A DNA stretch of 64,000 nucleotides from an uncultured Ignavibacteria bacterium (GTDB lineage: Bacteria > Zixibacteria > MSB-5A5 > CAIYYT01). Under the pieces are notes generated by a model, which was not told the DNA's origin, searched no databases, and saw nothing but the letters and a program-made list of their open reading frames with translations. Where the stretch lies: the NCBI GenBank assembly GCA_964370935.1, contig CAYJKI010000003.1, positions 26,413-90,412 of the forward strand, written 5' to 3'. Below are positions 11,588-54,794 of the stretch, piece after piece; the first letter of the stretch is position 1, and each line of letters begins with the position of its first letter. Made by a program: the position numbers and the translations under genes.

Positions 11588-12091
11588 ATGGCTGTACGCG
11601 AAATACTCTTGCTTGGCAATCCGCTTCTGCTTCAGTCATGTGATGAAGTGCGGCGCGACGAGCTCGAATCGTTAGGGCCGGTCATTCAGGATCTCCACGA
11701 TACGTTGCTTGATTTTCGTCGGCGTTACAATGCCGGTCGTGCAATTGCAGCACCGCAAATCGGCGTGATGAAGCGATTGGTCTTTATGCAGATCGATGAA
11801 CCGACTGTTTTCATCAATCCGGCCCTCAACGAGTTGAGTGAAGACACATTTGAGCTTTGGGACGACTGTATGTCGTTTCCGGACTTGTTCGTGCGAGTCC
11901 GCCGGCATTGCAGTTGTCAGATTACTTACCGCGACCTCGAGTGGATTGAGCGCAAGATGACGCTCAAGGACGATCTCTCGGAGTTATTACAACACGAAAT
12001 AGACCATCTTAATGGCATCCTAGCCGTTTCTCGGGCGATCGACGGTGCTTCCTTCTCCCTGCGAAGTCAGCGCCGGCACCTCTCGCGTTAA
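11588..12091 (+). CDS. Peptide deformylase paralogue (divergent motifs)
   Basis: The three PDF motifs are present but non-canonical: GRAIAAPQIG (motif 1), DDCMSFPD (motif 2, Cys retained) and QHEIDHLNG (HExxH). Confidence 0.8.
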   Translation: MAVREILLLGNPLLLQSCDEVRRDELESLGPVIQDLHDTLLDFRRRYNAGRAIAAPQIGVMKRLVFMQIDEPTVFINPALNELSEDTFELWDDCMSFPDLFVRVRRHCSCQITYRDLEWIERKMTLKDDLSELLQHEIDHLNGILAVSRAIDGASFSLRSQRRHLSR

Positions 12092-21476: not shown

Positions 21477-21752
21477 AGTTTCCTCGCGAGTTACCGATGG
21501 CTGGCTGAAATGGACGATTGTCAAGCGCCTCTAAGTGAGGCTGACACAAAGATGATAATCCGTTATCGTCATTATCGCAACGAAATTCGTTCTTTGAGGG
21601 CCTGACATTTTAACATTCCCGGGGGCTTGTCAAACCCGAGCCTACCTTCCGGTGACTGGTAATGGTGAGTCGTTGATATGATACCAGCCCTGAATATCTC
21701 CTTGCCAATCATGGCTCTCTGATTATCTTGTTTAAATAACAGGAGTAAATGC

Positions 21753-37764: not shown

Positions 37765-38268
37765 GTGGCCCGGCAGAAGATTGTCATATATGGCGATGAA
37801 GTTCTGCGCGAAATGTGCACGCCGGTGAAGGAGATCACTCCGGAACTCAAGGAGTTCATTGAGGAGATGTTTGTCACCTTGCGCCGTGTCAAGGGAGTCG
37901 GACTATCTGCTCCCCAAGTTGGAGTAACCGAGCGTTTTTTTATCCTGGATCTCGAAGCGGTTGAGTTGGAGCATGACAAAGTGGTCATGATCAATCCCGA
38001 AATCCTGTCGACCTCGGGTGAGCAGTGCGGAGAGGAAGGCTGTTTGTCCTTCCCGGGTTTGTTCGTGGAAGTCTCTCGCGCCAATGAAGTCGTTTGCCGC
38101 TATGCCGACTTGGATGGGAAGCAGAAAGTAGTCCGTGCGGAAGGTTTGTTTGCCCGAGCTATCCAGCACGAGACTGACCATCTCAACGGCGTTTTGTTTA
38201 TAGATCATATAGACCCGGTGGAGCGTGAAATGCTCTCCGGGAAGTTGAAAAAAATAAAGGTATCCTAA
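37765..38268 (+). CDS. def: Peptide deformylase (canonical)
   Basis: GTG start. Motifs GVGLSAPQVG, EGCLSFPG and QHETDHLNG. Immediately upstream of fmt. Confidence 0.93.
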   Translation: MARQKIVIYGDEVLREMCTPVKEITPELKEFIEEMFVTLRRVKGVGLSAPQVGVTERFFILDLEAVELEHDKVVMINPEILSTSGEQCGEEGCLSFPGLFVEVSRANEVVCRYADLDGKQKVVRAEGLFARAIQHETDHLNGVLFIDHIDPVEREMLSGKLKKIKVS

Positions 38269-44060: not shown

Positions 44061-44423
44061 ATGAACATCTTTGTAGGCAATCTGTCACGTCAGGCAACGG
44101 AAGAGGATCTTCGTCAGGCGTTTTCGAGCTTCGGCAATGTAGCCAAGGCCACCATCATTAAAGACAAGTTCTCGGGCGAACCCCGTGGATTCGGCTTTGT
44201 TGAAATGGCGACCAAAGAGGAAGCAATGGCTGCTATCGCCGGCATGAACGGCAAGGAACTGCTTGGTCGTACCCTCAACGTCAACGAAGCCCGTCCGCGT
44301 GAAGCGGGTGGCGGCGGCGGCGGTTCTCGTGGTGGTGGCGGTGGTGATCGTCGCGGTGGCGGCGGTGGCCGTGGTGGTTTCGGCGAGCGTCGCGATTACG
44401 GCGGCGGACGTCGTAACGGATAA
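44061..44423 (+). CDS. Glycine/arginine-rich RNA-binding protein (single RRM domain)
   Basis: RNP-2 (IFVGNL) and RNP-1 (RGFGFVEM) motifs. The C-terminal RGG-type tail is [37 protein letters not shown]. Confidence 0.92.
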
Positions 44424-44492
44424 CATCCGCACCTGACAGCATTGCGGTGTTATCGTCCGCTGCAATGAATGCCTAATAAATAAGTCGATATG

Positions 44493-44523
44493 CGCCGCCC
44501 GGCTCAACCGGGCGGCGTTTTTT
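44493..44523 (+). terminator. Rho-independent terminator after the RRM protein gene
   Basis: 10-bp GC stem cgccgcccgg / ccgggcggcg, loop ctcaa, then tttttt (44518-44523). Confidence 0.85.
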
Positions 44524-44805
44524 GTTGGGAGGCAATATGTCTTGTCAACGCTCTCTTTTGAAGTACGCGCATTTGCTTCAAACACATCTGGACCTGATGC
44601 AAGACCAGTAACGGTATCGTGCATGTGAACCACTTCACGTGCAATTGAATTCCGCAAATCACTACATTTCCGATTGGAATCGCCAATTGGGTTAAGACCT
44701 ATTCAGTCTTGCTTTTACGTTCGCATTCAGAATAGTCCCAAAAATAGACAAAAAAGTTTCTTAATTACTTGACTAATTATGTCCGATAATGTAGGATGTA
44801 CACTG

Positions 44806-44834
44806 TTGACATTGTGAAAAATGTCACTTATTGT
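44806..44834 (+). promoter_or_regulatory. Candidate promoter with embedded palindrome upstream of the OFOR-NuoEF operon
   Basis: TTGACA (44806-44811), a 17-nt spacer, then TATTGT (44829-44834). The inverted repeat tgacatt-N6-aatgtca (44807-44813 and 44820-44826) overlaps the -35 element and spacer. The first-gene ATG is at 44846, so the leader would be very short. Confidence 0.4.
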
Positions 44835-44845
44835 GAGTAGGCGCT

Positions 44846-45568
44846 ATGACTGATCGCAGCTACATCTCGTTCGACAAACGCATCGTCATTTTTGCCGGCG
44901 CTTATGGCTCCGGCAAGACCGAGGTTGCGGTCAACTATGCCATCCAATTGGCGCAGCACTCCGAGGACCCCATTAGCATCATTGATCTCGACATCGTAAA
45001 TCCCTATTTCCGTTCGCGCGAGGCCGCCCTTGAGATGGAAACCTACGGCATTCGCCCGATCAATCCACTGGGCGAGCAAACCTTCGCCGACCTGCCGATT
45101 ATCGTTCCACAAATACGCGCCTCGATCGAAAGCAGTTCGGGACGGGTGATTATCGATGTCGGTGGGGATGATCTGGGAGCGCGAGTATTGAGTTCAATGC
45201 ACGACGCGCTGGAGAATGCCCAATACGAGTTTCTGATGGTGCTCAACGCCAACCGGCCGTTTACCTCGACTGTCGACGGGGCACTCAAGATGATGCACGA
45301 TATCGAAACCTCGGCGCGATTGAATTTCACTGGAATCGTCTCCAACACGCACCTGATCGGTGAGACCACACCGCAGACCATTCTCGATGGAATTAAGCTG
45401 GCGCAGGCCGTCGCTGCTCGGGCTGAAATACCGTTGGTGTTTGCAAGCGGGATGGATGAAGTGATAGCCAAACTTGAAAACCTGAATATATCAGTGCCGC
45501 TGTTTTCACTTTCACGACGCATGCTGAAGCCGTGGGAGCACGCAAGCAGCACGGCAAAAAACCATTAG
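44846..45568 (+). CDS. Uncharacterised P-loop NTPase (SIMIBI-like), first gene of the OFOR operon
   Basis: Walker A (IFAGAYGSGKTEVA), DLD after beta2 (ISIIDLDIVNPYF), Walker-B-like VIIDVGGDD and a possible specificity motif SNTHL. 240 aa. I cannot name a characterised family with confidence. Confidence 0.6.
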   Translation: MTDRSYISFDKRIVIFAGAYGSGKTEVAVNYAIQLAQHSEDPISIIDLDIVNPYFRSREAALEMETYGIRPINPLGEQTFADLPIIVPQIRASIESSSGRVIIDVGGDDLGARVLSSMHDALENAQYEFLMVLNANRPFTSTVDGALKMMHDIETSARLNFTGIVSNTHLIGETTPQTILDGIKLAQAVAARAEIPLVFASGMDEVIAKLENLNISVPLFSLSRRMLKPWEHASSTAKNH

Positions 45569-45591
45569 GCGAAGGCTGGACAAGGAAACTT

Positions 45592-45825
45592 ATGCCGGGT
45601 GTCATCATAGATAAGAACTACTGCAAAGGCTGTGAACTTTGCGTCAAAGCCTGTCCGCAGAAGATTCTCTCGATGTCCAAGGACATTACCATGCGCGGAT
45701 ATTTCTATGCCTTGATGCACGATCCTTCGCGCTGTATCGGCTGCCAACTGTGCGCGATTACCTGTCCTGATGCGGCGATAACTGTCAAGATGCACGGCAC
45801 GCGCTTCGTGCTGTACGAATATTGA
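45592..45825 (+). CDS. korD: 2-oxoacid:ferredoxin oxidoreductase delta subunit (2x[4Fe-4S] ferredoxin)
   Basis: CKGCELCVKACP and CIGCQLCAITCP. I start at ATG 45592, after aaggaaa. The ORF-track start at 45532 overlaps the upstream gene. Confidence 0.85.
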   Translation: MPGVIIDKNYCKGCELCVKACPQKILSMSKDITMRGYFYALMHDPSRCIGCQLCAITCPDAAITVKMHGTRFVLYEY

Positions 45826-45832
45826 GGCTGAC

Positions 45833-46909
45833 ATGACGCGAATATTAATGAAAGGCAATGAAGCCATCGCCGAAGCCGCTATCCGCGCAGGCGGTGTCCA
45901 CTACTTTGCCTATCCGATAACTCCGCAGAGCGAAGTCGGCGAATATTTGGCTAAACGCCTACCCGAAGTTGGCGGAGTGTTTGTTCAGGCCGAATCTGAA
46001 GTCGCTGTCGGCAACATGCTGTTTGGCGCGGCTTCAACCGGCAAGCGGGTGTTCACTTCGTCTTCCAGTCCGGGCGTGAGTCTGATGCAAGAAGCGATAT
46101 CTTACATGGCCGGAGCGCAGTTGCCGGTGGTGATTATCAATATCATGCGCGGAGGTCCAGGGCTTGGCGGAATTCTTCCAGCGCAGTCGGATTACTTTCA
46201 ATCCACCAAGGGTGGTGGGCATGGCGACTATCGATTGCTCGTTCTCGCTCCGGCAAGTGTGCAGGAAGCCGTGGATTTGACGATGTTGGGATTTCACCTT
46301 GCCGACAAGTACCGCAACCCGGTACTCGTTATCGGCGACGGCATGATTGGCCAGATGATGGAGCCGGTGGAATTTCCGGACAAGTACGACGAACCGGAAT
46401 TGCCCGCAAAAGATTGGGCGATCACCGGGGCGAAGGGACGCAAGCCGTTGATCACGAAGTCGCTGTTCCTTGACCCTTACGCGCTCGAACAGAACAACAT
46501 CGTAATTCATGCAAAGTACGAGCAGATGAAGGTGAACGAGATTCGCTTTGAACTATACAAAGTTTCCGCCAAGAATCGCATGCTGATCGTCTCTTATGGC
46601 ACCATGGCACGTATTTGCCAGACTGTCATCGATGATCTTGAAAGAGAAGGCGTCAGCATAGGCTTATTGCGGCCGATCTCGCTATGGCCATTCCCGGAGA
46701 TGCAGATTCGCACCGAGGCTGCCAAGGCTAACATCGAGCGTGTCCTGACAGTCGAGATGAGCATGGGACAAATGGTCGAGGATGTTGACAAAGCCGTGCA
46801 GGGCAAGAAGCCGGTTGACTTCTTCGGTCGTACCGGCGGTATCGTCCCTGCTCCGGAAGAGGTCCGCGAGCGCATTCTGGAACTGCTTGACGGCAAGAAG
46901 GGGAAATGA
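45833..46909 (+). CDS. korA: 2-oxoglutarate/2-oxoacid:ferredoxin oxidoreductase alpha subunit
   Basis: 358 aa. N-terminus MKGNEAIAEAAIRAGGVHYFAYPITPQSE is typical of the OFOR alpha subunit. Confidence 0.9.
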   Translation: MTRILMKGNEAIAEAAIRAGGVHYFAYPITPQSEVGEYLAKRLPEVGGVFVQAESEVAVGNMLFGAASTGKRVFTSSSSPGVSLMQEAISYMAGAQLPVVIINIMRGGPGLGGILPAQSDYFQSTKGGGHGDYRLLVLAPASVQEAVDLTMLGFHLADKYRNPVLVIGDGMIGQMMEPVEFPDKYDEPELPAKDWAITGAKGRKPLITKSLFLDPYALEQNNIVIHAKYEQMKVNEIRFELYKVSAKNRMLIVSYGTMARICQTVIDDLEREGVSIGLLRPISLWPFPEMQIRTEAAKANIERVLTVEMSMGQMVEDVDKAVQGKKPVDFFGRTGGIVPAPEEVRERILELLDGKKGK

Positions 46910-46919
46910 GGTGAGCAAT

Positions 46920-47696
46920 ATGAACGAAGTTAAAGATAATGCCACGACGATTACTTTTGCTCGCCCGCAGGCATTTAGCGATGTCGTTACTCACTATTGT
47001 CCCGGCTGCACTCACGGAATTATCCATCGCCTCGTTGCCGAGACTATAGACGAACTTAACATCCGCGAACGCACTGTCGGCGTGGCACCGGTGGGTTGTT
47101 CGGTTTTGATTTACAATTACTTCAACGTCGATTTCCTCGAATCCCCGCACGGCCGTGCCCCTGCACTGGCTACAGGGCTCAAACGGGTCAGCCCGGAATT
47201 GATAGTATTCACTTATCAGGGTGACGGCGATCTGGCGTCGATCGGGCTTAGCGAAATCGTGCATGCGGCCAACCGCGGCGAGAAGTTCACTACGATTTTC
47301 GTGAATAATGCCATTTACGGCATGACCGGCGGCCAAATGGCGCCGACGACCATGCCGGGACAGGTGACGTCAACTTCGCCGTATGGTCGTAATGTCGAAG
47401 AGGCCGGTTGGCCGATGCGTATCTGCGAACTGCTGTCAACCTTGCGGACTCCGGGATACATCGAACGTGTTGCCGTTCACACGCCGCAAAATATCGTTCG
47501 CACCAAGAAGGCGATTAGGACGGCATTCCAAAATCAAATTGACCGGCGTTGTTTCTCGCTCATTGAGGTGCTCTCGACTTGCCCGACCAACTGGGGACTG
47601 ACACCGTGCGAAGCCACGAACTGGGTGCAAAGCAATATGTCGCCGTATTATCCGCTTGGCGTTTTCAAGAAACCCGAGCCAAGGATCGAGGTGTAG
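46920..47696 (+). CDS. korB: 2-oxoglutarate/2-oxoacid:ferredoxin oxidoreductase beta subunit (TPP-binding)
   Basis: HYCPGCTHG. TPP motif GDGDLASIG...FVNNAIYGMTGGQ. Further Cys ligands (VGCS, STCPTNWG). Start is ATG 46920 or GTG 46911. The ORF-track start at 46782 lies inside korA. Confidence 0.9.
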   Translation: MNEVKDNATTITFARPQAFSDVVTHYCPGCTHGIIHRLVAETIDELNIRERTVGVAPVGCSVLIYNYFNVDFLESPHGRAPALATGLKRVSPELIVFTYQGDGDLASIGLSEIVHAANRGEKFTTIFVNNAIYGMTGGQMAPTTMPGQVTSTSPYGRNVEEAGWPMRICELLSTLRTPGYIERVAVHTPQNIVRTKKAIRTAFQNQIDRRCFSLIEVLSTCPTNWGLTPCEATNWVQSNMSPYYPLGVFKKPEPRIEV

Positions 47697-47697
47697 G

Positions 47698-48261
47698 GTG
47701 TCACAGTACGAAGTCACCTTCGCCGGATTCGGTGGACAGGGGATCATGACCGCGGGGCAGCTGTTGGCGTACGCGGGTATTCACGAGGGCAAGCAAGTTG
47801 TCTGGATACCGTCATACGGTCCGGAGATGCGCGGCGGCACAGCCTATTGCACAGTTGTGGTTTCGGACAGCCGCATCGGCTCGCCGATTATCAACACTCC
47901 ACTGGGATTGGTGGTATTCAATCGCCCGTCCCTGGAGAAGTTTGCACCGAGAGTGAGGCCGGGCGGGACAATTATCGTCAATTCGTCACTCATAGATATT
48001 ACTTCGAACCGAAGTGATGTTGCCGAAATTCTTGTCCCCGCCAATGATATTGCAATCAAAGCCGGCAACACCAAGACCGTCAACATGATTATGCTCGGCG
48101 CCTTTGTCGGAGCCACCGAAGTGGTATCCTACAATACCTTGATCGAACTGGTAAAGGAAAAGATGGGGAAGAAGAAAGATCTCCTGGAAATGAACCTGCA
48201 GGTCGTCGACGAGGGGTACCAATTTGCCAAGTCGGCGCTAAAAGCCAAGGTGAAGGCATGA
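47698..48261 (+). CDS. korC: 2-oxoglutarate/2-oxoacid:ferredoxin oxidoreductase gamma subunit
   Basis: GTG at 47698, 1 nt after the korB stop. VTFAGFGGQGIMTAGQLLA...PSYGPEMRGG is typical of the gamma subunit. Confidence 0.88.
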   Translation: MSQYEVTFAGFGGQGIMTAGQLLAYAGIHEGKQVVWIPSYGPEMRGGTAYCTVVVSDSRIGSPIINTPLGLVVFNRPSLEKFAPRVRPGGTIIVNSSLIDITSNRSDVAEILVPANDIAIKAGNTKTVNMIMLGAFVGATEVVSYNTLIELVKEKMGKKKDLLEMNLQVVDEGYQFAKSALKAKVKA

Positions 48262-48710
48262 ACCACGATTTCTCAAAATTACCCGATATCTTTGCCCGCC
48301 ATCCCCAGGACGCATCATCGCTGATCATGATCCTGCAGGATATTCAGAAAGAGTACCGATACCTGCCCTGCGAAGCGCTCAAGGAAACGGCAGTAAAATT
48401 GCAGGTTCCACTAAGTAAGGTCTTCTCGGTCGCGACCTTTTACAATGCCTTCAGTCTGAATCCCAAAGGCGAAAAAGTCATCCGCGTGTGCGTCGGCACG
48501 GCCTGCCACATTCGCGGCGCCAAGCTGATTCAGGATCAAATCGAAAATGAGTTGAAAATCAAAGCCGGACAGACAACTGCTGACATGAAATATTCACTCG
48601 AAGTCGTCGCATGTGTTGGAGCTTGCGCGATGGCGCCTGTGGTTATTGTTAATGAGCAGTACCACGGTTCGGTCAAGGTAACCGGGGCGAAGAAGTTGGT
48701 GAAGGGATAA
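48258..48710 (+). CDS. NuoE/HydC/HndA-like [2Fe-2S] thioredoxin-fold subunit
   Basis: 150 aa. Cys pattern CVGTACHIRGA...CVGACAMAPV. ATGA overlap with korC. Confidence 0.85.
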   Translation: MNHDFSKLPDIFARHPQDASSLIMILQDIQKEYRYLPCEALKETAVKLQVPLSKVFSVATFYNAFSLNPKGEKVIRVCVGTACHIRGAKLIQDQIENELKIKAGQTTADMKYSLEVVACVGACAMAPVVIVNEQYHGSVKVTGAKKLVKG

Positions 48711-48714
48711 CATC

Positions 48715-50571
48715 ATGAAAATCACCTCATCCCAACATCTCGAACAACTGCGCTCACTGTTCGTCGCCGATGAAGCCCGCCACAAGAAAAAAGTCATCGT
48801 TTGTTGCGGAACAGGCTGTCTTGCCAACGGCGCTGCCAAACTTGTGGAGGCATTTCATACTGCTCTGAAAGAGAACAATATCACCGATTTCTCGGTCGAA
48901 GCTGTCAAGGAGACCGGCTGTCATGGCTTCTGCGAACAGGGACCGCTGGTCGTAATCGAACCACAGGGGACATTCTATATCAAGGTCAAACCGAAGGACA
49001 TTCCGGAGATCATTTCCAAATCAATACAGGGTCAGGAGATCATTACTGACCGTCTGTTTACCGATCCGGTTACCAACAAACAGATCGAGAAGTACAACGA
49101 CGTCAAGTTCTTCAAGCATCAGCACCGTTTGGCACTGCGCAATCTCGGCAAGATCGCTGCCCATTCGATAAAAGAATCGATCGCTGCCGGCGGCTACGCG
49201 GGAATTGCGAAAGCATTAACTACTATGACGCCTGACTCGGTGATTGCCGAAGTCGACAAAGCCAATTTGCGCGGTCGAGGCGGCGGCGGGTTCCCGGCCG
49301 GTCGCAAATGGAAGACATGCAAGTCGGTCGAATCCGACGTTCGCTATGTCATTTGCAACGGCGACGAGGGCGACCCGGGCGCATTTATGGATCGTTCTAT
49401 TATGGAAGGCGATCCGCACAGCGTGCTCGAAGGCATGATGATTTGCGCTTATGCAGTGGGGGCGAAGCAAGGTTTTATCTATGTTCGCGAAGAATACCCG
49501 CTGGCGGTAATTCATCTTCAGAAGGCCATTGATGACTGCGTTGAGTATGGACTGCTTGGAGCGAATATTCTTGGGACAGACTTTTCCTTCAATATCCGCA
49601 TCGCTCGCGGTGCCGGCGCCTTCGTCTGCGGAGAATCATCTGCTCTCATGCGTTCCGTGGCGGGCGAAGTCGGCGAACCGCGTGCCAAGTACATCCGCTC
49701 TGTCGTTAAAGGTTTGCACGACAAACCAACGGTTCTTAACAACGTCGAAACCTATGTCAATGTACCGCTCATTATCGTTAAGGGCGCCGACTGGTTCAAG
49801 TCAATCGGTCGTCCGAATAATTCCGGTACCAAAGCTTTCTCTCTGGTCGGCAAGGTCCGCAATACCGGCCTGATTGAAGTCGCGATGGGAACAACCTTGC
49901 GCGAGATCATCTACGACATAGGTGGCGGCATTCTTGAAGACCGCCCGTTCAAAGCCGTTCAGACCGGCGGGCCTTCCGGCGGCTGTCTTCCGGATGCGAT
50001 GCTCGATTTGCCGGTTGATTTCGACTCACTCACCGAGAATGGTTCAATGATGGGCTCCGGCGGCATGATTGTTATGGACAACAAGACCTGTATGGTCGAT
50101 GTCGCGCGTTACTTTTTGAATTTCCTCGTCTCCGAGTCGTGTGGAAAATGCACGCCGTGTCGCGAAGGTCTTTATCAACTGCACGAAATGACCATCAAAG
50201 TCTGCGAAGGCAAAGCATCGATGGAGGACCTGGAGAAGATCGAGAAGCTTTCCGATATGGTTGTTCTCGGCTCGCTCTGTGGTCTCGGCAAGTCCGGCCC
50301 CAATCCAGTGCTGTCGACACTTCGCTATTTCCGTGACGAATACATCGCACATATCCGCGACAAGAAATGCCCCGCCGGCGTCTGTCGCGAGCTGATTACC
50401 TATACTGTGATTGAAGAGAAATGTACCGGTTGTCTGGCGTGTATCACCGCCTGTGCCTACAATGCAATCACCGGCAAGAAAAAAGAGCCGCACTACATAC
50501 ATCAGGAACGCTGCACCAAGTGCGGCGCCTGCGAAGCGGTCTGCAAGTTTGACGCAATCGAGGTGGCATAG
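48715..50571 (+). CDS. NuoF/HydB/HndC-like NAD(P)H-binding flavoprotein with extra FeS domains
   Basis: 618 aa. N-terminal thioredoxin-like 2Fe-2S domain (VIVCCGTGCLANG...GCHGFCEQGP). FMN/NADH site (RGRGGGGFPAGRKW, ICNGDEGDPGAFMDR). ESCGKCTPCREG (N3-type 4Fe-4S). C-terminal CTGCLACITAC...CTKCGACEAVC (2x[4Fe-4S]). Confidence 0.88.
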   Translation: MKITSSQHLEQLRSLFVADEARHKKKVIVCCGTGCLANGAAKLVEAFHTALKENNITDFSVEAVKETGCHGFCEQGPLVVIEPQGTFYIKVKPKDIPEIISKSIQGQEIITDRLFTDPVTNKQIEKYNDVKFFKHQHRLALRNLGKIAAHSIKESIAAGGYAGIAKALTTMTPDSVIAEVDKANLRGRGGGGFPAGRKWKTCKSVESDVRYVICNGDEGDPGAFMDRSIMEGDPHSVLEGMMICAYAVGAKQGFIYVREEYPLAVIHLQKAIDDCVEYGLLGANILGTDFSFNIRIARGAGAFVCGESSALMRSVAGEVGEPRAKYIRSVVKGLHDKPTVLNNVETYVNVPLIIVKGADWFKSIGRPNNSGTKAFSLVGKVRNTGLIEVAMGTTLREIIYDIGGGILEDRPFKAVQTGGPSGGCLPDAMLDLPVDFDSLTENGSMMGSGGMIVMDNKTCMVDVARYFLNFLVSESCGKCTPCREGLYQLHEMTIKVCEGKASMEDLEKIEKLSDMVVLGSLCGLGKSGPNPVLSTLRYFRDEYIAHIRDKKCPAGVCRELITYTVIEEKCTGCLACITACAYNAITGKKKEPHYIHQERCTKCGACEAVCKFDAIEVA

Positions 50572-51354
50572 ATGAGTACGGTCACAATTACTGTTAACGG
50601 CAAGATTGTCCGCGCCCAGACCGGCGAATATTTGCTCGGTGTGCTCCGGCGCGAAAAGATCGACATCCCGGCGCTCTGCCATCACGAAGCCGTCGAACCG
50701 TATGGTGGTTGCCGCCTTTGTACAGTTGAAGTCACCAAGGCCGAATGGAAGGGCTGGAGCGATCACGTCGTTTCTTGTCTTTATCCGATTGCTGATGGTC
50801 TGATTGTCCAGACACACTCGGCAAAGGTAATTGAACTTCGTAAGACGCTACTTGATCTCTATCTGGCGCGGCACCCGCAGACCAAACTGATTCAGGACAT
50901 GGCAGCCGACTACGGGGTGACCCAGACCAGCTATCAGACTGTTCCGGAACCAAATGACTGCATTCTTTGCGGGATCTGCGTGCGTATTTGCGATCGTATG
51001 GGTTTTTCGGCAATCTCGGCGGTCAACCGCGGCCATGGCCGAGAGATCGCGCCGCCACTCAATGAGGCGCCGCCTGATTGTGTTGGTTGTCTGGCTTGCG
51101 CGCTAAACTGTCCGACCGGTTACATCAAGTTCGAAGACGCGGGCTTCAAACGGACAATCTGGAAACGCGAGTTTGAGATATTGCGTGATGCTAAGACCGG
51201 CGCGCCGTCGATCACCAAGGAATTTTCCGAGTACCTGGTCAAGAACCGCGCGATTCCGCAGGAATACTTCAAGTACAACGATGAGTCGCATCGCAAGGAC
51301 ACTGCAGTAAACATGGGTAAAATCGTGCAATGGAATCGCGAGGTGTCATCATGA
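50572..51354 (+). CDS. NuoG/HydA N-terminal-like FeS protein (2Fe-2S plus ferredoxin-type clusters, no catalytic domain)
   Basis: 260 aa. Plant-type 2Fe-2S ferredoxin start (ITVNGKIV...PALCHHE...GGCRLCTVEV...VSC). Then CILCGICVRIC and CVGCLACALNCP. The ORF ends with no H-cluster or molybdopterin domain. It starts the nucleotide after the upstream stop. Confidence 0.8.
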   Translation: MSTVTITVNGKIVRAQTGEYLLGVLRREKIDIPALCHHEAVEPYGGCRLCTVEVTKAEWKGWSDHVVSCLYPIADGLIVQTHSAKVIELRKTLLDLYLARHPQTKLIQDMAADYGVTQTSYQTVPEPNDCILCGICVRICDRMGFSAISAVNRGHGREIAPPLNEAPPDCVGCLACALNCPTGYIKFEDAGFKRTIWKREFEILRDAKTGAPSITKEFSEYLVKNRAIPQEYFKYNDESHRKDTAVNMGKIVQWNREVSS

Positions 51355-51764
51355 AAATGCAGTACCAAGTCATCCCGCATCTTTGCATCGGTTGTCGCAC
51401 TTGCGAACTTGCTTGTTCATTTACGCACGCCCAAAACGGCAAACCGGGCCGCAGTCGGATTTATCCGCTCGATGCCGGTTACAAGGAAATGTGGGTACCG
51501 GTTGTCTGTTTGCAGTGTGAAGATCCAGCCTGCGTCAAGTCGTGCCTCGTCGACGCCATCAAGATGAATCCGACAACCGGAGCTTACGAAATCGATCGCG
51601 AAGTTTGCGTGCGCTGTATGGCGTGTGTGGCCGCTTGTCCGTTTGGTTGCTCATTGTTCGACCAACAGCACAATGAAGTGATCAAATGTGACTTGTGCGG
51701 TGGCGATCCGGCCTGCGCCCATTTTTGTCCAACCAAAGCGCTGGTCTACAAACCGCTGCCATAG
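51351..51764 (+). CDS. CooF/HybA-like 4Fe-4S polyferredoxin
   Basis: CIGCRTCELAC, CLQCEDPACVKSC, CVRCMACVAACP and CDLCGG..ACAHFCP. ATG 51351 forms an ATGA overlap with the upstream gene. Confidence 0.85.
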   Translation: MKMQYQVIPHLCIGCRTCELACSFTHAQNGKPGRSRIYPLDAGYKEMWVPVVCLQCEDPACVKSCLVDAIKMNPTTGAYEIDREVCVRCMACVAACPFGCSLFDQQHNEVIKCDLCGGDPACAHFCPTKALVYKPLP

Positions 51765-51815: not shown

Positions 51816-51850
51816 AATCGCGACTATCTTGTATAGCCGCGATTTTTACT
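51816..51850 (+). terminator. Candidate rho-independent terminator closing the OFOR-NuoEF operon
   Basis: Stem aatcgcg(a)ctat / atag(c)cgcgatt (11 bp with one mismatch), loop cttgt, followed by tttact. Located 52 nt after the stop at 51764. Confidence 0.5.
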
Positions 51851-51904
51851 TCTCGAAATCTGTCCGTCTGCCGAAATAATAATACGTGTAGGAATGAACC
51901 AGCT

Positions 51905-53187: not shown

Positions 53188-54027
53188 ATGCGGTCATTGG
53201 CTCTTGCGATACTTTCGGCAATTGTTTTGTTGTTCAACGCCTGTTCGGAGAAGAAACCCGAAACCGCCCAACCGGAAAAACCGGTACAACAGCCGTTGCA
53301 GGCCGCCGATTCCAGCGGAATTCGTCCGGTCAATTTCGTCTGGGGAAACCAGCAGCATCGAATGATTAACTTCTTCTTCCAACCAACTGACTCGCTGCGC
53401 GGATTTGCGCCCGACCTGCTTAAGAAGGCACTGGAAATATACAAATTTGATTGTGAAGTCCTGAATTGGTTTACACCGGAGCCGGTAGAATTCTACTGTT
53501 TTGAGAACATGGAAACAATGGCCATGTATACCTCGCGTGACGTACCGTTCTTCCTTGGCAATCGCATTTACTACGGCTACGGTCCGCCATTTGGTCGACC
53601 GTTCGCCGAGTTTGTCATGTCCAAGCTGCCTGATGGTCCGTCCCGATTTGCGTTTATACATGAAGGAGTTCCGATGTTGTTGGATTACACCGGCCGTAAC
53701 TACCATCAGGCGACCTTCAATTTTGTCGGTGAGCAAAAAATCCATCCGGTATCAGTTTTGACCAGCAATGCAGACTATGTCCAGCTCAATCAGGCGATGC
53801 GCGAAATTGAGGCAGCTTCGCTTTGCGGATACATGATGTGGGAGTGGGGATACGAGAAGTTCATGAAGATCTACCACAGTGACAAAGAATTTGCCGAAGC
53901 GCTCAAGGAAGCAACCGGCGTCGATGTAGCCCAGTTGGAGAAGCAATGGCTCGCGTTCCTTCCAGAGCACACGGATGAGAAGGAAGATGCACGACGTGGC
54001 GCTATGCAGCAAGGAGGCGGAAAATGA
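53188..54027 (+). CDS. Hypothetical lipoprotein
   Basis: RBS aggagg 7 nt upstream of the start. Lipobox LLFNAC. 279 aa with no recognised motif. Its stop overlaps the next start (ATGA). Confidence 0.6.
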   Translation: MRSLALAILSAIVLLFNACSEKKPETAQPEKPVQQPLQAADSSGIRPVNFVWGNQQHRMINFFFQPTDSLRGFAPDLLKKALEIYKFDCEVLNWFTPEPVEFYCFENMETMAMYTSRDVPFFLGNRIYYGYGPPFGRPFAEFVMSKLPDGPSRFAFIHEGVPMLLDYTGRNYHQATFNFVGEQKIHPVSVLTSNADYVQLNQAMREIEAASLCGYMMWEWGYEKFMKIYHSDKEFAEALKEATGVDVAQLEKQWLAFLPEHTDEKEDARRGAMQQGGGK

Positions 54028-54794
54028 GCGGCGAGAACCAGTGGCAGACTTCCATCACGGAGATTGCACCCAACTCTATTTGTGTGCGCGGTTATGACGT
54101 TGCCGAACTGATGGACCACACCAGCTTTAGCGATACAATCTTCCTGGTGTTGAAAGGTGAACTACCTGATCCGCGTCAGTCGGAGATGTTCCGCGCCATT
54201 ATGGTGTCCTCAGTGGATCACGGCGTGACGCCGCCATCGGTCCTGGCGGCACGGACAGTGATGTCGGCAGGCAACTCGCTGAACACCGCAGTCGCCGCCG
54301 GCATAATGGCCATTGGCGACGTCCACGGAGGTGCCATCGAGCAATCCGCACGAATCATGCAGGAGACTGCCAAGAAAGAGGGCGATGTCAATGCTCTGGC
54401 ACAAGCGCTCGTTGCGACCATGAAAGAGAAGAACCAGCGCATGCCCGGCTACGGCCACCGTCTGCATACGGCGGACCCGCGCACAGCCAAGCTATTTGCC
54501 ATCGCGGCGAAGAACCAGTTTTCCGGCAGACATACGTCGCTGGCGCAGGCGATTGAAAAGGCATTTGCTGAAATTGGCGGCAAACCGCTCCCGATCAATG
54601 TCGATGGTGCAATTGCTGCGGTCACGTCTGACATGGGATTCGACTGGCGGCTCGGGAAGGCATTCTTCATGTTGTCCCGCATTTCCGGTCTGATCGCCCA
54701 TGTGTATGAAGAGAAGACGACGCAGAAACCGATGCGAAAACTGGGTGACACAAATGCCGCCTATATCGGTCCGCCGCGACGGTCGCTTAAATAG
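54024..54794 (+). CDS. Short citrate-synthase-family protein (citryl-CoA lyase-like)
   Basis: 256 aa. Citrate-synthase catalytic-region motifs SSVDHGVTPPS, PGYGHRLHTADPR and PINVDGAIAAV. Lacks the large N-terminal part of true citrate synthases, as in citryl-CoA lyase. Confidence 0.7.
   Translation: MSGENQWQTSITEIAPNSICVRGYDVAELMDHTSFSDTIFLVLKGELPDPRQSEMFRAIMVSSVDHGVTPPSVLAARTVMSAGNSLNTAVAAGIMAIGDVHGGAIEQSARIMQETAKKEGDVNALAQALVATMKEKNQRMPGYGHRLHTADPRTAKLFAIAAKNQFSGRHTSLAQAIEKAFAEIGGKPLPINVDGAIAAVTSDMGFDWRLGKAFFMLSRISGLIAHVYEEKTTQKPMRKLGDTNAAYIGPPRRSLK

What the first reader, a model, noticed from the sequence alone, without database searches (positions are those of the whole stretch)
44846..51764. 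Nine-gene coupled operon joining a four-subunit 2-oxoacid:ferredoxin oxidoreductase to a hydrogenase-less NuoE/NuoF/NuoG-N-term (HydBC-type) flavin-FeS module
Seen in sequence: nine same-strand genes are separated by -4 to +23 nt. There is an ATGA overlap at 48258-48261, abutting genes at 50571/50572 and an ATGA overlap at 51351-51354. The block is bracketed by a strong upstream terminator (44493-44523), a TTGACA-17-TATTGT promoter (44806-44834) and a downstream hairpin with T tail (51816-51850).
The products are:
- a P-loop NTPase;
- OFOR delta/alpha/beta/gamma in the oorDABC order (TPP motif GDGD...NN in beta);
- a NuoE/HydC-like 2Fe-2S protein;
- a 618-aa NuoF/HydB/HndC-like protein with an N-terminal thioredoxin-like 2Fe-2S domain, an FMN/NAD(P)H site (RGRGGGGFPAGRKW) and a C-terminal 2x[4Fe-4S] domain;
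- a 260-aa NuoG/HydA N-terminal-only FeS protein;
- a CooF-like polyferredoxin.
Established knowledge: NuoE/NuoF homologues with these extra FeS domains form the NAD(P)H-flavin core of electron-bifurcating [FeFe]-hydrogenases and formate dehydrogenases (HydABC/HndABCD type). In those enzymes the third subunit carries the catalytic domain.
Inference: no H-cluster, Mo/W-pterin or other catalytic domain is encoded here, so the only catalytic partner is the OFOR. The locus may therefore encode a complex that couples 2-oxoglutarate or 2-oxoacid oxidation (or reductive carboxylation) to NAD(P)(H), possibly with ferredoxin in a confurcating or bifurcating mode.
Basis: partly seen in the sequence, partly recalled or inferred. 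Interest (0 to 1): 0.8.

Follow-up and report, generated by a model that had tools for sequence, protein, structure and literature searches.

The report
2-oxoacid oxidoreductase fused to Bfu module
This is a conserved nine-gene operon that joins a four-subunit 2-oxoacid:ferredoxin oxidoreductase to a hydrogenase-type NADH/ferredoxin electron-bifurcating (BfuABC) module; the idea is already published as the predicted "Por-Bfu" enzyme, but this is an undescribed variant found in at least four bacterial phyla.

Summary
**Observation.** It is confirmed in every detail. Nine + strand genes lie at 44846-51764 with gaps of 23, 7, 10, 1, -4, 4, 0 and -4 nt, and all cofactor motifs are intact.

**Interpretation.** It is supported by comparative genomics, but the concept is not new. 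OFOR + BfuABC was predicted as "Por-Bfu" (Schut 2022, PMC9304861), and no such enzyme has been purified.
- g6, g7 and g8 meet every sequence criterion of a Type 2 Bfu core.
- Their closest solved homologues are WorB and WorA of the bifurcating WorABCSL (9MQX).

**What is new.**
- The OFOR is a Kor/Vor-type enzyme in DABC order. It is only 24-31% identical to the PorCDAB of published-type loci.
- g9 is a WorS/AorA-like 4x[4Fe-4S] subunit, which the literature says Por-Bfu lacks.
- A Cys-free SIMIBI NTPase (g1) always comes first in the operon.
- The nine-gene order is colinear in 80 loci from Zixibacteria, Acidobacteriota, Myxococcota and Planctomycetota.
- ATGA overlaps are conserved at the OFOR-gamma/BfuC junction (49/55) and the BfuA/g9 junction (61/78).
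- In Zixibacteria a citryl-CoA lyase gene is linked in 33/37 loci, which hints at 2-oxoglutarate as substrate.

**Verdict.** This is a new variant of a known, predicted kind. Function remains untested.

The parts
44492..44524 (+). Intrinsic terminator of the upstream RRM RNA-binding-protein gene. It isolates the operon from upstream transcription.
   Evidence: The stem has 11 bp (10 GC) followed by a T run. Folding gives -26.3 kcal/mol, z -3.8.
44740..44845 (+). Conserved ~110-nt regulatory region. It holds two sigma-70-like promoters (TTGACT-17-TAGGAT at 44769-44797 and TTGACA-17-TATTGT at 44806-44834) and a Rex/CRP-like palindrome TGTGAAAAATGTCACT at 44813-44828. A second box, TGTGAACCACTTCACG, lies at 44624-44639.
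   Evidence: The region is nearly invariant in L002-L007 while sequence further upstream diverges. The palindromes are conserved in position in L002-L009, L026 and L027. The pattern count in the window is not above chance.
44846..45568 (+). g1: a 240-aa SIMIBI-class (MinD/CbiA-like) P-loop NTPase with Walker A GAYGSGKT and no cysteine. It is probably an assembly or maturation factor; its role is unknown.
   Evidence: Pfam gives a weak ParA hit. Homologues are named CbiA or MinD-like. The AF2 model has pLDDT 83.5. Foldseek finds Ffh/FtsY, ATPase-type HypB and AF2382 at TM ~0.5. g1 is the first gene in every complete locus.
45592..45825 (+). g2: OFOR delta subunit, 77 aa, 2x[4Fe-4S] (Cys 11, 14, 17, 21 and 48, 51, 54, 58).
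45833..46909 (+). g3: OFOR alpha subunit, 358 aa, VorB-subfamily type.
   Evidence: Pfam finds POR_N + PFOR_II. NCBIfam NF005507 scores 522 bits against a cut-off of 399. The best PDB matches are 1yd7, 8ys5 and 6n2n, which are Kor/OGOR-type.
46920..47696 (+). g4: OFOR beta subunit, 258 aa. It carries the TPP site (GDGD 101, NN 129-130) and candidate Cys ligands for the proximal [4Fe-4S] (27, 30, 60, 221).
47698..48261 (+). g5: OFOR gamma subunit (GTG start). Its stop overlaps the g6 start (ATGA).
   Evidence: Pfam POR hit at 1.7e-42. The junction is read. The -4 overlap is conserved in 49/55 loci.
48258..48710 (+). g6: BfuC (NuoE/HydC-like), 150 aa, [2Fe-2S] C1 (Cys 78, 83, 119, 123).
   Evidence: PF01257 at 2.5e-47.
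48715..50571 (+). g7: BfuB (NuoF/HydB-like), 618 aa. It has the B5 2Fe-2S domain, the FMN/NADH site, B1 (Cys 476, 479, 482, 522), the B2 site (C459, C497, H546, C552, C557) and B3/B4 (C570-580, C600-610).
   Evidence: The PDB matches 9mqx_B, 8a6t_B and 7t2r_B score E ~1e-219. The motif table is in the PMC9304861 supplement.
50572..51354 (+). g8: Type 2 BfuA (WorA-like), 260 aa. It has A1 [2Fe-2S] and two [4Fe-4S] (A2, A4). The His-ligated A3, A5 and any catalytic domain are absent. The Zn-finger cysteines are lost (D206, T209, N236, S239), and a C-terminal helix is predicted at 237-259.
   Evidence: The best PDB match is 9mqx_A at 3e-45. See also alignment A1, the Cys census and the AF2 model.
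51351..51764 (+). g9: WorS/AorA/HycB-type polyferredoxin, 137 aa, 4x[4Fe-4S]. It is the proposed single-unit wire between the OFOR and BfuA cluster A4, and it lacks the WorS oligomerising C-terminal helix.
   Evidence: PDB matches are 8c0z_C at 1e-31 and 9mqx_E at 8e-26. NCBIfam matches the N-terminal domain of PadI at 6.8e-25. The protein has 17 Cys. The -4 overlap with g8 is conserved in 61/78 loci.
51816..51853 (+). Hairpin with a U-rich tail; the likely operon terminator.
   Evidence: Folding gives -10.9 kcal/mol, z -3.0.
53188..54794 (+). Linked two-gene unit: an unknown ~279-aa protein with a lipobox-like N-terminus (53188-54027), then a citryl-CoA lyase-like protein (54024-54794) joined by an ATGA overlap. 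It is not part of the operon but is a conserved neighbour in Zixibacteria.
   Evidence: NF004869 scores 312 bits against a cut-off of 212. The unit lies next to the operon in 33/37 evaluable Zixibacteria loci, 29 upstream-divergent and 4 downstream.

Best explanation
**What it is.** The nine genes encode one multi-subunit enzyme plus a dedicated NTPase. It is a Kor/Vor-type four-subunit 2-oxoacid:ferredoxin oxidoreductase (delta, alpha, beta, gamma) wired to a Type 2 BfuABC flavin/FeS electron-bifurcating core.

**Proposed electron path (inferred).**
- The 2-oxoacid is decarboxylated at TPP in alpha/beta.
- Electrons pass the beta [4Fe-4S] and the two delta [4Fe-4S] clusters.
- They cross the four [4Fe-4S] clusters of g9, a WorS-like subunit docked on the C-terminal helix of BfuA.
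- They then follow BfuA A4-A2-A1 to BfuB B1 and FMN.

**Proposed reaction (inferred).** Four electrons from two turnovers are split at the FMN/B1/B5/C1 site. Two leave as a hydride to NAD+, and two leave at low potential through C1-B2-B3-B4 to ferredoxin. The net reaction is 2 R-CO-COO- + 2 CoA + NAD+ + 2 Fd(ox) -> 2 acyl-CoA + 2 CO2 + NADH + 2 Fd(red).

**Other points.**
- g1 is most likely an NTP-dependent assembly or maturation factor.
- In Zixibacteria the substrate is most likely 2-oxoglutarate, at low to moderate confidence.
- The benefit would be direct NADH supply and a stronger pull on 2-oxoacid oxidation in organisms reported to lack Rnf.

**Shown versus inferred.** Gene content, cofactor motifs, homology and conserved, coupled synteny are shown. 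Physical complex formation, the electron path, bifurcation, direction and substrate are inferred.
For: **(1) The Bfu core criteria are all met.**
- BfuB has the FMN site, B1, the N-terminal 2Fe-2S (B5), the C-terminal 2x[4Fe-4S] (B3/B4) and all five B2 ligands.
- BfuC has C1.
- BfuA has 12 Cys, matching A1 + A2 + A4 only.
- These rest and the criteria. Characterised non-bifurcating homologues lack B2-B5.

**(2) The closest solved structures are bifurcating enzymes.**
- g7 matches WorB, HydB and NiFe-HydB at E ~1e-219.
- g8 matches WorA at 3e-45 over residues 17-217.
- g9 matches AorA and WorS.
- In WorABCSL the WorA C-terminal helix recruits WorS and brings S4 within 10.7 A of A4. g8 has a predicted C-terminal helix at 237-259.

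**(3) A domain fusion links the polyferredoxin to an OFOR beta subunit.** g9 aligns to the N-terminal domain of PadI, the beta subunit of NAD-dependent phenylglyoxylate dehydrogenase. g4 aligns to its C-terminal part.

**(4) Synteny is conserved.**
- 53/53 evaluable Zixibacteria loci have all nine genes colinear.
- The gamma/BfuC ATGA overlap is present in 49/55 loci and the BfuA/g9 overlap in 61/78.
- The same nine-gene operon occurs in Myxococcota, Planctomycetota and Acidobacteriota.
- Pairwise distances of all nine genes correlate, r 0.77-0.93, over 81 operons.

**(5) No alternative catalytic partner is nearby.** None lies in the operon or in the 64-kb window.

**(6) The concept is already in the literature.** Schut 2022 proposed Por-Bfu, supported by co-expression in D. 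mccartyi. Zixibacterium RBG-1 was reported to lack Rnf and H2-evolving hydrogenases.

**(7) A substrate hint.** A citryl-CoA lyase gene is linked in 33/37 Zixibacteria loci. The best solved OFOR matches are 2-oxoglutarate enzymes.
Against: - No OFOR-Bfu of any type has been purified, so complex formation and bifurcation are inferences.
- The OFOR keeps its own delta ferredoxin-like subunit. In canonical enzymes delta is the exit to free ferredoxin, so a free-standing OFOR cannot be excluded.
- E0' of the acyl-CoA + CO2/2-oxoacid couple (~-500 mV) is already low enough to reduce either acceptor alone. The need for bifurcation is therefore not obvious; the Bfu authors note this themselves.
- The g8 model is mediocre (mean pLDDT 66.7; 62 for residues 241-250 and 44 for 251-260), and g8 lacks the Zn finger that buttresses the WorA helix.
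- The substrate is unresolved. The alpha subunit falls in NCBIfam's VorB (2-oxoisovalerate) subfamily. The citryl-CoA lyase linkage is absent outside Zixibacteria.
- The role of g1 has no direct evidence.
Confidence: 0.62

Rival explanations
1. Non-bifurcating NAD+-dependent OFOR. The Bfu module acts only as a diaphorase, so all electrons from 2-oxoacid oxidation end on NAD+. This would resemble phenylglyoxylate:NAD+ oxidoreductase, with no obligatory ferredoxin reduction.
For: - E0' of ~-500 mV makes direct NAD+ reduction strongly exergonic (Table 1 of PMC9304861).
- g9 resembles the N-terminal domain of PadI, from an NAD-linked OFOR.
- NAD-linked OFORs therefore have a precedent.
Against: g7 retains B2, B3, B4 and B5, and g6 retains C1. 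These are absent from all characterised non-bifurcating NuoF homologues and conserved in bifurcating ones. In the related WorABCSL neither NAD+ nor Fd is reduced alone, although both reactions are exergonic.
Confidence: 0.15
2. Two separate enzymes that are merely co-transcribed. One is a conventional ferredoxin-dependent OFOR. The other is a BfuABC+S module that works with another partner, or as an NADH/ferredoxin balancing device.
For: - The OFOR has the full canonical delta-alpha-beta-gamma set, including its own ferredoxin-like delta.
- Operons can group functionally related but physically separate enzymes.
- The authors of PMC9304861 raise the same question for Codh-Bfu.
Against: - The nine-gene order is invariant in 80 loci across >=4 phyla.
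- An ATGA overlap sits exactly at the OFOR-gamma/BfuC boundary in 49/55 loci, and all genes co-vary.
- A BfuABC without a third substrate has no thermodynamically sensible reaction.
- No alternative catalytic subunit is encoded in the operon or window.
Confidence: 0.1
3. The physiological direction is reversed. The enzyme would be a 2-oxoacid (2-oxoglutarate) synthase that carboxylates acyl-CoA using NADH plus reduced ferredoxin (confurcation). It would act in a reductive or reversible TCA cycle together with the linked citryl-CoA lyase.
For: - Bfu enzymes are reversible.
- Schut 2022 suggested pyruvate synthesis for gluconeogenesis as a role for Por-Bfu.
- A citryl-CoA lyase, a citrate-cleavage enzyme of rTCA variants, is linked in 33/37 Zixibacteria loci.
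Against: - Mixing NADH (-280 to -320 mV) with Fd(red) yields roughly -400 mV electrons. That is less reducing than Fd(red) alone, while the couple to be reduced is ~-500 mV (Table 1), so confurcation would hinder carboxylation.
- RBG-1 Zixibacteria were judged non-autotrophic.
- The citryl-CoA lyase linkage is missing in the other phyla.
Confidence: 0.1

Closest known systems
Por-Bfu (predicted pyruvate oxidoreductase-BfuABC; Schut et al. 2022, PMC9304861), prototype in Dehalococcoides mccartyi 195. Examples fetched here: L083, L086, L175.
   Same: - Four OFOR subunits are encoded directly upstream of bfuC-bfuB-bfuA.
- BfuA is Type 2 (A1, A2, A4 only).
- BfuB and BfuC carry the complete cofactor set.
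[quoted passage not shown]
- In an NJ tree without support values, Zixibacteria BfuB is sister to the group that contains L083.
   Different: - The OFOR here is Kor/Vor-type in DABC order. L083 has PorCDAB (PorB 422 bits against a cut-off of 405), and the two are only 24-31% identical.
- A WorS-like g9 and an NTPase g1 are present here and absent there.
- BfuA here has a ~21-residue tail after the Zn-finger position, predicted to be helical. The L083 BfuA ends 6 residues after the finger.
- The B2 ligand at the 'C476' position is Cys here and Thr in Dm Por and L083.
WorABCSL, the tungsten aldehyde oxidoreductase-Bfu of Acetomicrobium mobile (PDB 9MQX; PMC12318220).
   Same: - It supplies the best solved homologues of g7 (WorB), g8 (WorA) and, second best, g9 (WorS).
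- It is a Type 2 Bfu whose third-substrate module is on separate subunits.
- A polyferredoxin S subunit plugs into A4 through the BfuA C-terminal helix.
   Different: - The catalytic module here is a TPP OFOR, not a W-pterin WorL.
- g9 lacks the ~19 C-terminal residues that let WorS polymerise into a nanowire.
- The window's g8 has lost the four Zn-finger cysteines, which 39/80 Zixibacteria homologues keep.
- B2 is predicted to be all-Cys/His as in NiFe-Bfu, not the Thr/Zn type.
HydABC electron-bifurcating [FeFe]-hydrogenase (8A6T, 7P5H, 7Q4V) and NiFe-HydABCSL (7T2R).
   Same: The BfuBC core architecture is the same, with about 730 bits to HydB. The NiFe enzyme shares the Cys at the B2 'C476' position.
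   Different: g8 has no H-cluster, A3 or A5. No hydrogenase subunits are present.
Phenylglyoxylate:NAD+ oxidoreductase PadEFGHI (NCBIfam NF0457xx models).
   Same: It is an OFOR that delivers electrons to NAD+. Its beta subunit PadI carries an N-terminal polyferredoxin domain homologous to g9.
   Different: From my own knowledge, the NAD module there is a different flavoprotein (PadH), not a NuoEF/Bfu core. The Pad alpha, beta and gamma models score far below their cut-offs here.
Canonical four-subunit OFORs: OorDABC, KorDABC and VorABC (solved: 8YS5; related two-subunit OGOR: 6N2N; isolated alpha subunit: 1YD7).
   Same: The subunit set, gene order (DABC), TPP motif and FeS motifs are the same.
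   Different: Those enzymes use free ferredoxin or flavodoxin only. The beta, gamma and delta subunits here score well below every curated equivalog cut-off.

Membership tests
Bfu (BfuABC) electron-bifurcating family (PMC9304861) | BfuB has the NuoF core: FMN/NADH-binding domain, SLBB, and the N3-type [4Fe-4S] (B1). | tested here: met
   PF01512 at 5e-43, PF10589 at 4e-30 and SLBB are found. B1 ligands are Cys 476, 479, 482 and 522, and the motif RGRGGGGFPAGRKW is present.
Bfu (BfuABC) electron-bifurcating family (PMC9304861) | BfuB extras that non-bifurcating homologues lack: the N-terminal [2Fe-2S] B5, the C-terminal 2x[4Fe-4S] B3/B4, and the B2 Cys/His site. | tested here: met
   PF01257 matches residues 21-102, with Cys 31, 35, 69 and 73. 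The motifs CxxCxxCxxxC lie at 570-580 and 600-610. The B2 ligands are C459, C497, H546, C552 and C557.
Bfu (BfuABC) electron-bifurcating family (PMC9304861) | BfuC is a NuoE-like [2Fe-2S] protein (IPR002023), encoded next to BfuB. | tested here: met
   PF01257 matches full length at 2.5e-47. The ligands are Cys 78, 83, 119 and 123. The gene lies 4 nt upstream of g7.
Bfu (BfuABC) electron-bifurcating family (PMC9304861) | BfuA has at least a [2Fe-2S] and a ferredoxin-type 4Fe-4S domain. Type 2 has A1, A2 and A4 only. | tested here: met
   Fer2_4 + Fer4 are found. The 12 Cys are 36, 47, 50, 69; 130, 133, 136, 140; 170, 173, 176, 180. The H-x3-C-x2-C-x5-C (A3) motif is missing in the alignment to HydA.
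Bfu (BfuABC) electron-bifurcating family (PMC9304861) | Tightly coupled reduction of NAD+ and ferredoxin by the third substrate. | not testable with these tools
   This needs the purified enzyme.
Por-Bfu as published (seven subunits, A-G) | Four OFOR subunit genes lie contiguous with bfuCBA. | tested here: met
Por-Bfu as published (seven subunits, A-G) | The OFOR is of the pyruvate (PorCDAB) type. | tested here: not met
   g3 falls in the VorB subfamily (522 bits) and scores only 106 bits against PorA_Arch (cut-off 550). The gene order is DABC. Identity to the L083 PorCDAB is 24-31%.
Por-Bfu as published (seven subunits, A-G) | BfuA has a Zn finger but no C-terminal helix, and there is no WorS homologue (PMC12318220). 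| tested here: not met
   g9 is a WorS/AorA homologue. g8 has a tail with a predicted helix at 237-259 and no Zn-finger Cys. The L083 BfuA fits the published description.
WorA-WorS 'plug' architecture (9MQX) | The S subunit has four [4Fe-4S] clusters and is homologous to WorS. | tested here: met
   9mqx_E matches at 8e-26 over residues 7-135. There are four 4-Cys motifs.
WorA-WorS 'plug' architecture (9MQX) | The BfuA C-terminal alpha-helix adaptor is buttressed by a 4-Cys Zn finger. | tested here: inconclusive
   A helix is predicted at 237-259, but block-mean pLDDT falls from 62 (residues 241-250) to 44 (251-260). The Zn-finger cysteines are absent in the window (D, T, N, S) and present in 39/80 Zixibacteria homologues.
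WorA-WorS 'plug' architecture (9MQX) | The WorS C-terminal helix polymerises S subunits into a nanowire, and a W-pterin WorL is the catalytic subunit. | tested here: not met
   g9 ends 2 residues after the aligned region, whereas WorS has 19 more residues. No AOR/WOR-family gene is in the operon or window.
Four-subunit 2-oxoacid:ferredoxin oxidoreductase (delta-alpha-beta-gamma) | Alpha (POR_N + domain II), beta (TPP motif GDG...NN plus Cys ligands for one [4Fe-4S]), gamma (POR domain) and delta (2x[4Fe-4S]). | tested here: met
Four-subunit 2-oxoacid:ferredoxin oxidoreductase (delta-alpha-beta-gamma) | Defined substrate (2-oxoglutarate, 2-oxoisovalerate or pyruvate). | tested here: inconclusive
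   The alpha subunit is in the VorB subfamily. The best solved matches are OGOR-type. The beta, gamma and delta subunits are below all equivalog cut-offs. Citryl-CoA lyase is linked in Zixibacteria only.

The most novel reading that the evidence does not exclude
The nine-gene operon defines a distinct enzyme class that spans several phyla. Its parts are a SIMIBI NTPase, a Kor/Vor-type OFOR in DABC order, BfuCBA and a single WorS-like wire subunit.

On this reading the OFOR module was recruited to a Bfu core separately from the published PorCDAB-type Por-Bfu. The enzyme would serve as an NADH-yielding anaerobic counterpart of 2-oxoglutarate dehydrogenase in the TCA cycle of Zixibacteria, Acidobacteriota, Myxococcota and Planctomycetota. 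g1 would be a dedicated NTP-dependent assembly factor, and the operon may be under redox (Rex-like) control.
Probability: 0.35. Interest if true: 0.7.

Novelty: new variant of a known kind. Interest (0 to 1): 0.55.

Why it matters
- **Central carbon flux.** OFORs are the main entry and exit points of carbon in anaerobic central metabolism and are normally taken to be purely ferredoxin-linked. If this enzyme splits electrons between NAD+ and ferredoxin, redox and ATP budgets would change for four widespread, mostly uncultured sediment and soil phyla. It would also explain how organisms reported to lack Rnf obtain NADH from 2-oxoacid oxidation.
- **Test of the Bfu hypothesis.** Schut et al. propose that all Bfu enzymes bifurcate, even with low-potential third substrates. 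No OFOR-Bfu has been purified. This variant carries features of the solved WorABCSL (a WorS-like subunit and a BfuA C-terminal helix), so it makes a structurally interpretable test case.
- **Natural controls.** The Zn finger is present in some homologues and lost in others. The B2 ligand is Cys here and Thr elsewhere. Both variations can be used to probe disputed points of the Bfu mechanism.
- **Annotation.** Genome annotation currently labels these genes as NuoEFG, HoxU or CbiA, which is misleading.

Tried and rejected
- **Fetching the D. mccartyi prototype.** I used a BfuB fragment transcribed from the PMC9304861 supplement. It returned only relatives at <=70% identity. Three of the loci fetched in these scans (L083, L086, L175) still showed the published PorCDAB-type arrangement and served as comparators.
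- **Apparent extra g8 copies with a different context.** L045 and L056 come from one 'chromosome' (CP070824) that turned out to be N-scaffolded short contigs. L050 has an N run. None is informative.
- **Substrate assignment from curated families and solved structures.** The result is inconclusive: a VorB-subfamily alpha against OGOR-type best PDB matches. A literature search for OGOR specificity residues gave nothing usable.
- **Function of g1 from fold search.** Only generic SIMIBI NTPases were found at TM ~0.5. An Fe-S carrier role of the Mrp/NBP35 type is unlikely because g1 has no cysteine.
- **RNA elements.** Rfam finds no riboswitch or other RNA anywhere in the window.
- **Rex/CRP-like boxes.** They are conserved in position in close relatives. 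As a pattern they are not enriched in the window: 4 matches against 3.0 expected. I therefore report them only as a lead.
- **Search for a catalytic partner.** No hydrogenase, FDH or WOR gene lies in the 64-kb window. The whole genome could not be checked.
- **Literature.** I found no paper that describes this arrangement in Zixibacteria or Ca. Sulfomarinibacter.
- **Unknown 279-aa neighbour.** It has no Pfam or PDB sequence match.

Full report
**Observation**

| Gene | Coordinates | Product |
|---|---|---|
| g1 | 44846-45568 | P-loop NTPase |
| g2 | 45592-45825 | OFOR delta |
| g3 | 45833-46909 | OFOR alpha |
| g4 | 46920-47696 | OFOR beta |
| g5 | 47698-48261 (GTG start) | OFOR gamma |
| g6 | 48258-48710 | NuoE-like |
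| g7 | 48715-50571 | NuoF-like |
| g8 | 50572-51354 | short NuoG-like |
| g9 | 51351-51764 | polyferredoxin |

- The gaps are 23, 7, 10, 1, -4, 4, 0 and -4 nt.
- Pfam and NCBIfam confirm every domain call.
- A cysteine census shows complete ligand sets for every predicted cluster, and the TPP motif GDGD...NN in beta.
- The upstream terminator is strong (-26.3 kcal/mol). The downstream hairpin is weaker but real (-10.9 kcal/mol, U-rich tail).
- The TTGACA-17-TATTGT promoter sits in a ~110-nt stretch that is almost invariant in relatives whose g1 protein is only 70-94% identical. Sequence further upstream is unalignable.

**What the Bfu-like genes are**

The published definition of the Bfu family (Schut et al. 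2022, PMC9304861) asks for three things:
- a BfuB with FMN, B1, a B2 Cys/His site, C-terminal B3/B4 and an N-terminal B5;
- a BfuC with C1;
- a BfuA with at least A1 plus ferredoxin-type clusters.

g7 has all of these: B5 Cys 31, 35, 69, 73; B1 Cys 476, 479, 482, 522; B2 C459, C497, H546, C552, C557; B3/B4 at 570-580 and 600-610. g6 has C1.

g8 has 12 Cys, enough for A1 plus two [4Fe-4S] clusters. It lacks the His-ligated A3 motif, A5 and any catalytic domain. That makes it a Type 2 BfuA.

Characterised non-bifurcating NuoF homologues lack B2-B5.

The closest solved structures are:
- for g7, WorB (9mqx_B, E 7e-220), HydB (8a6t_B) and NiFe-HydB (7t2r_B);
- for g8, WorA (9mqx_A, 3e-45, residues 17-217).

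9MQX is the bifurcating tungsten aldehyde oxidoreductase WorABCSL (PMC12318220).

One detail stands out. The B2 ligand at the 'C476' position is Cys in g7 (KVCEGK), as in NiFe-Bfu, where B2 is a [2Fe-2S] cluster. In WorB, HydB and the D. mccartyi Por BfuB it is Thr, and there a Zn ion is seen or expected.

**The concept is already published**

Schut et al. list 'Por-Bfu' among the predicted, uncharacterised Type 2 Bfu enzymes.
- It has four pyruvate oxidoreductase subunits plus BfuABC.
- Its proposed reaction is 2-oxoacid oxidation coupled to simultaneous NAD+ and Fd reduction.

Only two papers in the library mention the term. That is a point in its favour, and it limits novelty.

**How this locus differs from published Por-Bfu**

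I fetched diverse BfuB loci and found published-type examples: L083, L086 and later L175.
- Their order is porC-porD-porA-porB-bfuC-bfuB-bfuA.
- Their OFOR subunits pass NCBIfam Por cut-offs (PorB 422 against 405).
- Those subunits are only 24-31% identical to the window's.
- The L083 BfuA has the CxxC...CxxC Zn finger and ends six residues later. No polyferredoxin and no NTPase gene is adjacent.

This is exactly what PMC12318220 says of Por-Bfu: a Zn finger, no C-terminal helix and no WorS homologue.

The window differs on each point.
- The OFOR is in oorDABC order. Its alpha subunit is in the VorB subfamily (522 bits against a cut-off of 399). Its best solved matches are 1yd7, 8ys5 and 6n2n, which are Kor/OGOR-type.
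- g9 is a homologue of AorA (8c0z_C, 1e-31) and WorS (9mqx_E, 8e-26) with four 4-Cys motifs.
- g8 carries about 21 residues beyond the Zn-finger position. AlphaFold2 predicts a helix at 237-259. Confidence is modest: mean pLDDT is 66.7, and the block means fall to 62 for residues 241-250 and 44 for 251-260.
- The four Zn-finger cysteines are D, T, N and S in the window. They are intact in 39 of 80 Zixibacteria homologues, so the finger is ancestral and dispensable.
- g9 lacks the ~19 C-terminal residues that WorS uses to polymerise. I therefore expect one wire unit rather than a nanowire.

One more link ties g9 to the OFOR. g9 aligns to the N-terminal domain of PadI, the beta subunit of NAD-dependent phenylglyoxylate dehydrogenase, and g4 aligns to its C-terminal part. 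This is a natural fusion of this polyferredoxin with an OFOR beta subunit.

**Conservation**

- A genome scan seeded with a g8 alignment gave 80 loci, almost all Zixibacteria MAGs. The nearest was 98% identical, so the window is most likely zixibacterial.
- All 53 loci with enough flank carry g1-g9 in the same order. The OFOR-gamma/BfuC junction is an ATGA overlap in 49/55 loci, and the BfuA/g9 junction in 61/78.
- An exhaustive representative search provided distant full-length g8 relatives.
- Scans seeded with two of them found the same nine-gene operon in three more phyla: Myxococcota, Planctomycetota (Phycisphaerae) and Acidobacteriota (Holophagae, Thermoanaerobaculia, Ca. Sulfomarinibacteraceae).
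- In total 80 loci plus the window have all nine genes at >=85% coverage and colinear. Pairwise distances of every gene pair correlate at r 0.77-0.93. The operon therefore evolves, and probably moves, as one unit.
- In an NJ tree without support values, the Zixibacteria BfuB clade is sister to a group that includes the Por-type L083. This suggests a shared Type 2 core with different OFOR modules.

**Context**

- The 64-kb window holds housekeeping genes and no hydrogenase, FDH or WOR gene. Rfam finds nothing.
- One neighbour is conserved: an unknown ~280-aa protein followed by a citryl-CoA lyase-like gene (NF004869, 312 bits against 212; window 53188-54794).
- This unit lies next to the operon in 33/37 evaluable Zixibacteria loci. 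It is usually upstream and divergent, and in the window's clade it is downstream. It is absent from the other phyla's loci.
- Together with the OGOR-type structural matches, this tilts the substrate guess towards 2-oxoglutarate. The VorB-subfamily hit keeps branched-chain 2-oxoacids open.
- g1 is a Cys-free SIMIBI NTPase with no close structural relative. Its invariant first position across phyla argues for a dedicated role, probably assembly, but that is analogy only.

**Mechanism and rivals**

The best-supported model is a single OFOR-Bfu complex.
- Electrons run TPP -> beta -> delta -> g9 -> A4-A2-A1 -> B1/FMN.
- They are then bifurcated to NAD+ and, through C1-B2-B3-B4, to ferredoxin.
- Zixibacterium RBG-1 was reported to lack Rnf and H2-evolving hydrogenases. 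Direct NADH formation would therefore be useful.

Three rivals remain: a plain NAD+-dependent OFOR, two co-transcribed but separate enzymes, and a reverse (synthase) role. Their confidence values are given in the rival explanations.
- The retained Fd-branch clusters weaken the first.
- The coupled, phylum-spanning synteny weakens the second.
- Thermodynamics (about -400 mV confurcated electrons against a -500 mV couple) weakens the third.

None is excluded without biochemistry.

**Verdict**

The kind is known as a prediction. This nine-gene architecture, with a WorS-like subunit, a different OFOR lineage and an NTPase, is not described in the literature I could search. I rate it a new variant of a known kind, with interest 0.55.

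Noticed in passing
window 53188-54794 (+); e.g. L059 2271-3954 (-): A two-gene unit is a conserved neighbour of the operon in Zixibacteria. It consists of an unknown ~280-aa protein (lipobox-like N-terminus, no Pfam or PDB match) and a citryl-CoA lyase-like protein, joined by an ATGA overlap. It lies next to the operon in 33/37 evaluable loci, in two different orientations. It is not found near the operon in the other phyla.
   Followed up: partly
window 44624-44639 and 44813-44828: Two Rex/CRP-FNR-like palindromes lie upstream of g1: TGTGAACCACTTCACG and TGTGAAAAATGTCACT. The second sits inside the promoter spacer. Half-sites and positions are conserved in L002-L009, L026 and L027 while the spacers vary. 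The pattern count in the window is not above chance. This may point to redox (NADH) control of the operon.
   Followed up: partly
L011-L079, about 150-190 nt upstream of g1: In Zixibacteria loci with the divergent citryl-CoA lyase arrangement, a different motif is conserved in the shared intergenic region: (C/A/T)GTTATTTTTTTCACA. Its function is unknown.
   Followed up: no
window g8 residues 206, 209, 236, 239 (50572-51354); alignment of L001-L080: The WorA-type Zn finger of BfuA is intact (CCCC) in 39/80 Zixibacteria homologues. It is partly or wholly lost in the rest (for example DTNS in 17, including the window), while the C-terminal tail length stays about 21 residues.
   Followed up: yes
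window 23582-25696 (+): A 704-aa ADP-forming acyl-CoA synthetase (ACD type; CoA_binding + Succ_CoA_lig + ATP-grasp_5). This is the usual ATP-yielding partner of OFORs. It lies 19 kb upstream of the operon.
   Followed up: no
window 44061-44423 (+): An RRM-type RNA-binding protein with a Gly/Arg-rich tail lies directly upstream, followed by the strong terminator. It is 99-100% identical in L002, L004 and L005.
   Followed up: no
window 11588-12091 and 37765-38268 (+): Two peptide deformylase paralogues are present. The second is followed by methionyl-tRNA formyltransferase.
   Followed up: no
window 19284-21524 (-): A 746-aa protein combines a CotH kinase domain with a lamin-tail domain.
   Followed up: no
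L045, L056 (CP070824.1): A record titled 'chromosome' of a Zixibacteria MAG is a concatenation of ~1-2.5 kb pieces separated by 100-N runs. Synteny cannot be read from it.
   Followed up: yes
L175 (Deltaproteobacteria MAG), L083, L086: The published seven-gene PorCDAB-BfuCBA arrangement coexists in the databases with the nine-gene type. L175 came up in the scan seeded with P0242, a distant g8 relative, so the two architectures share related BfuA proteins.
   Followed up: partly
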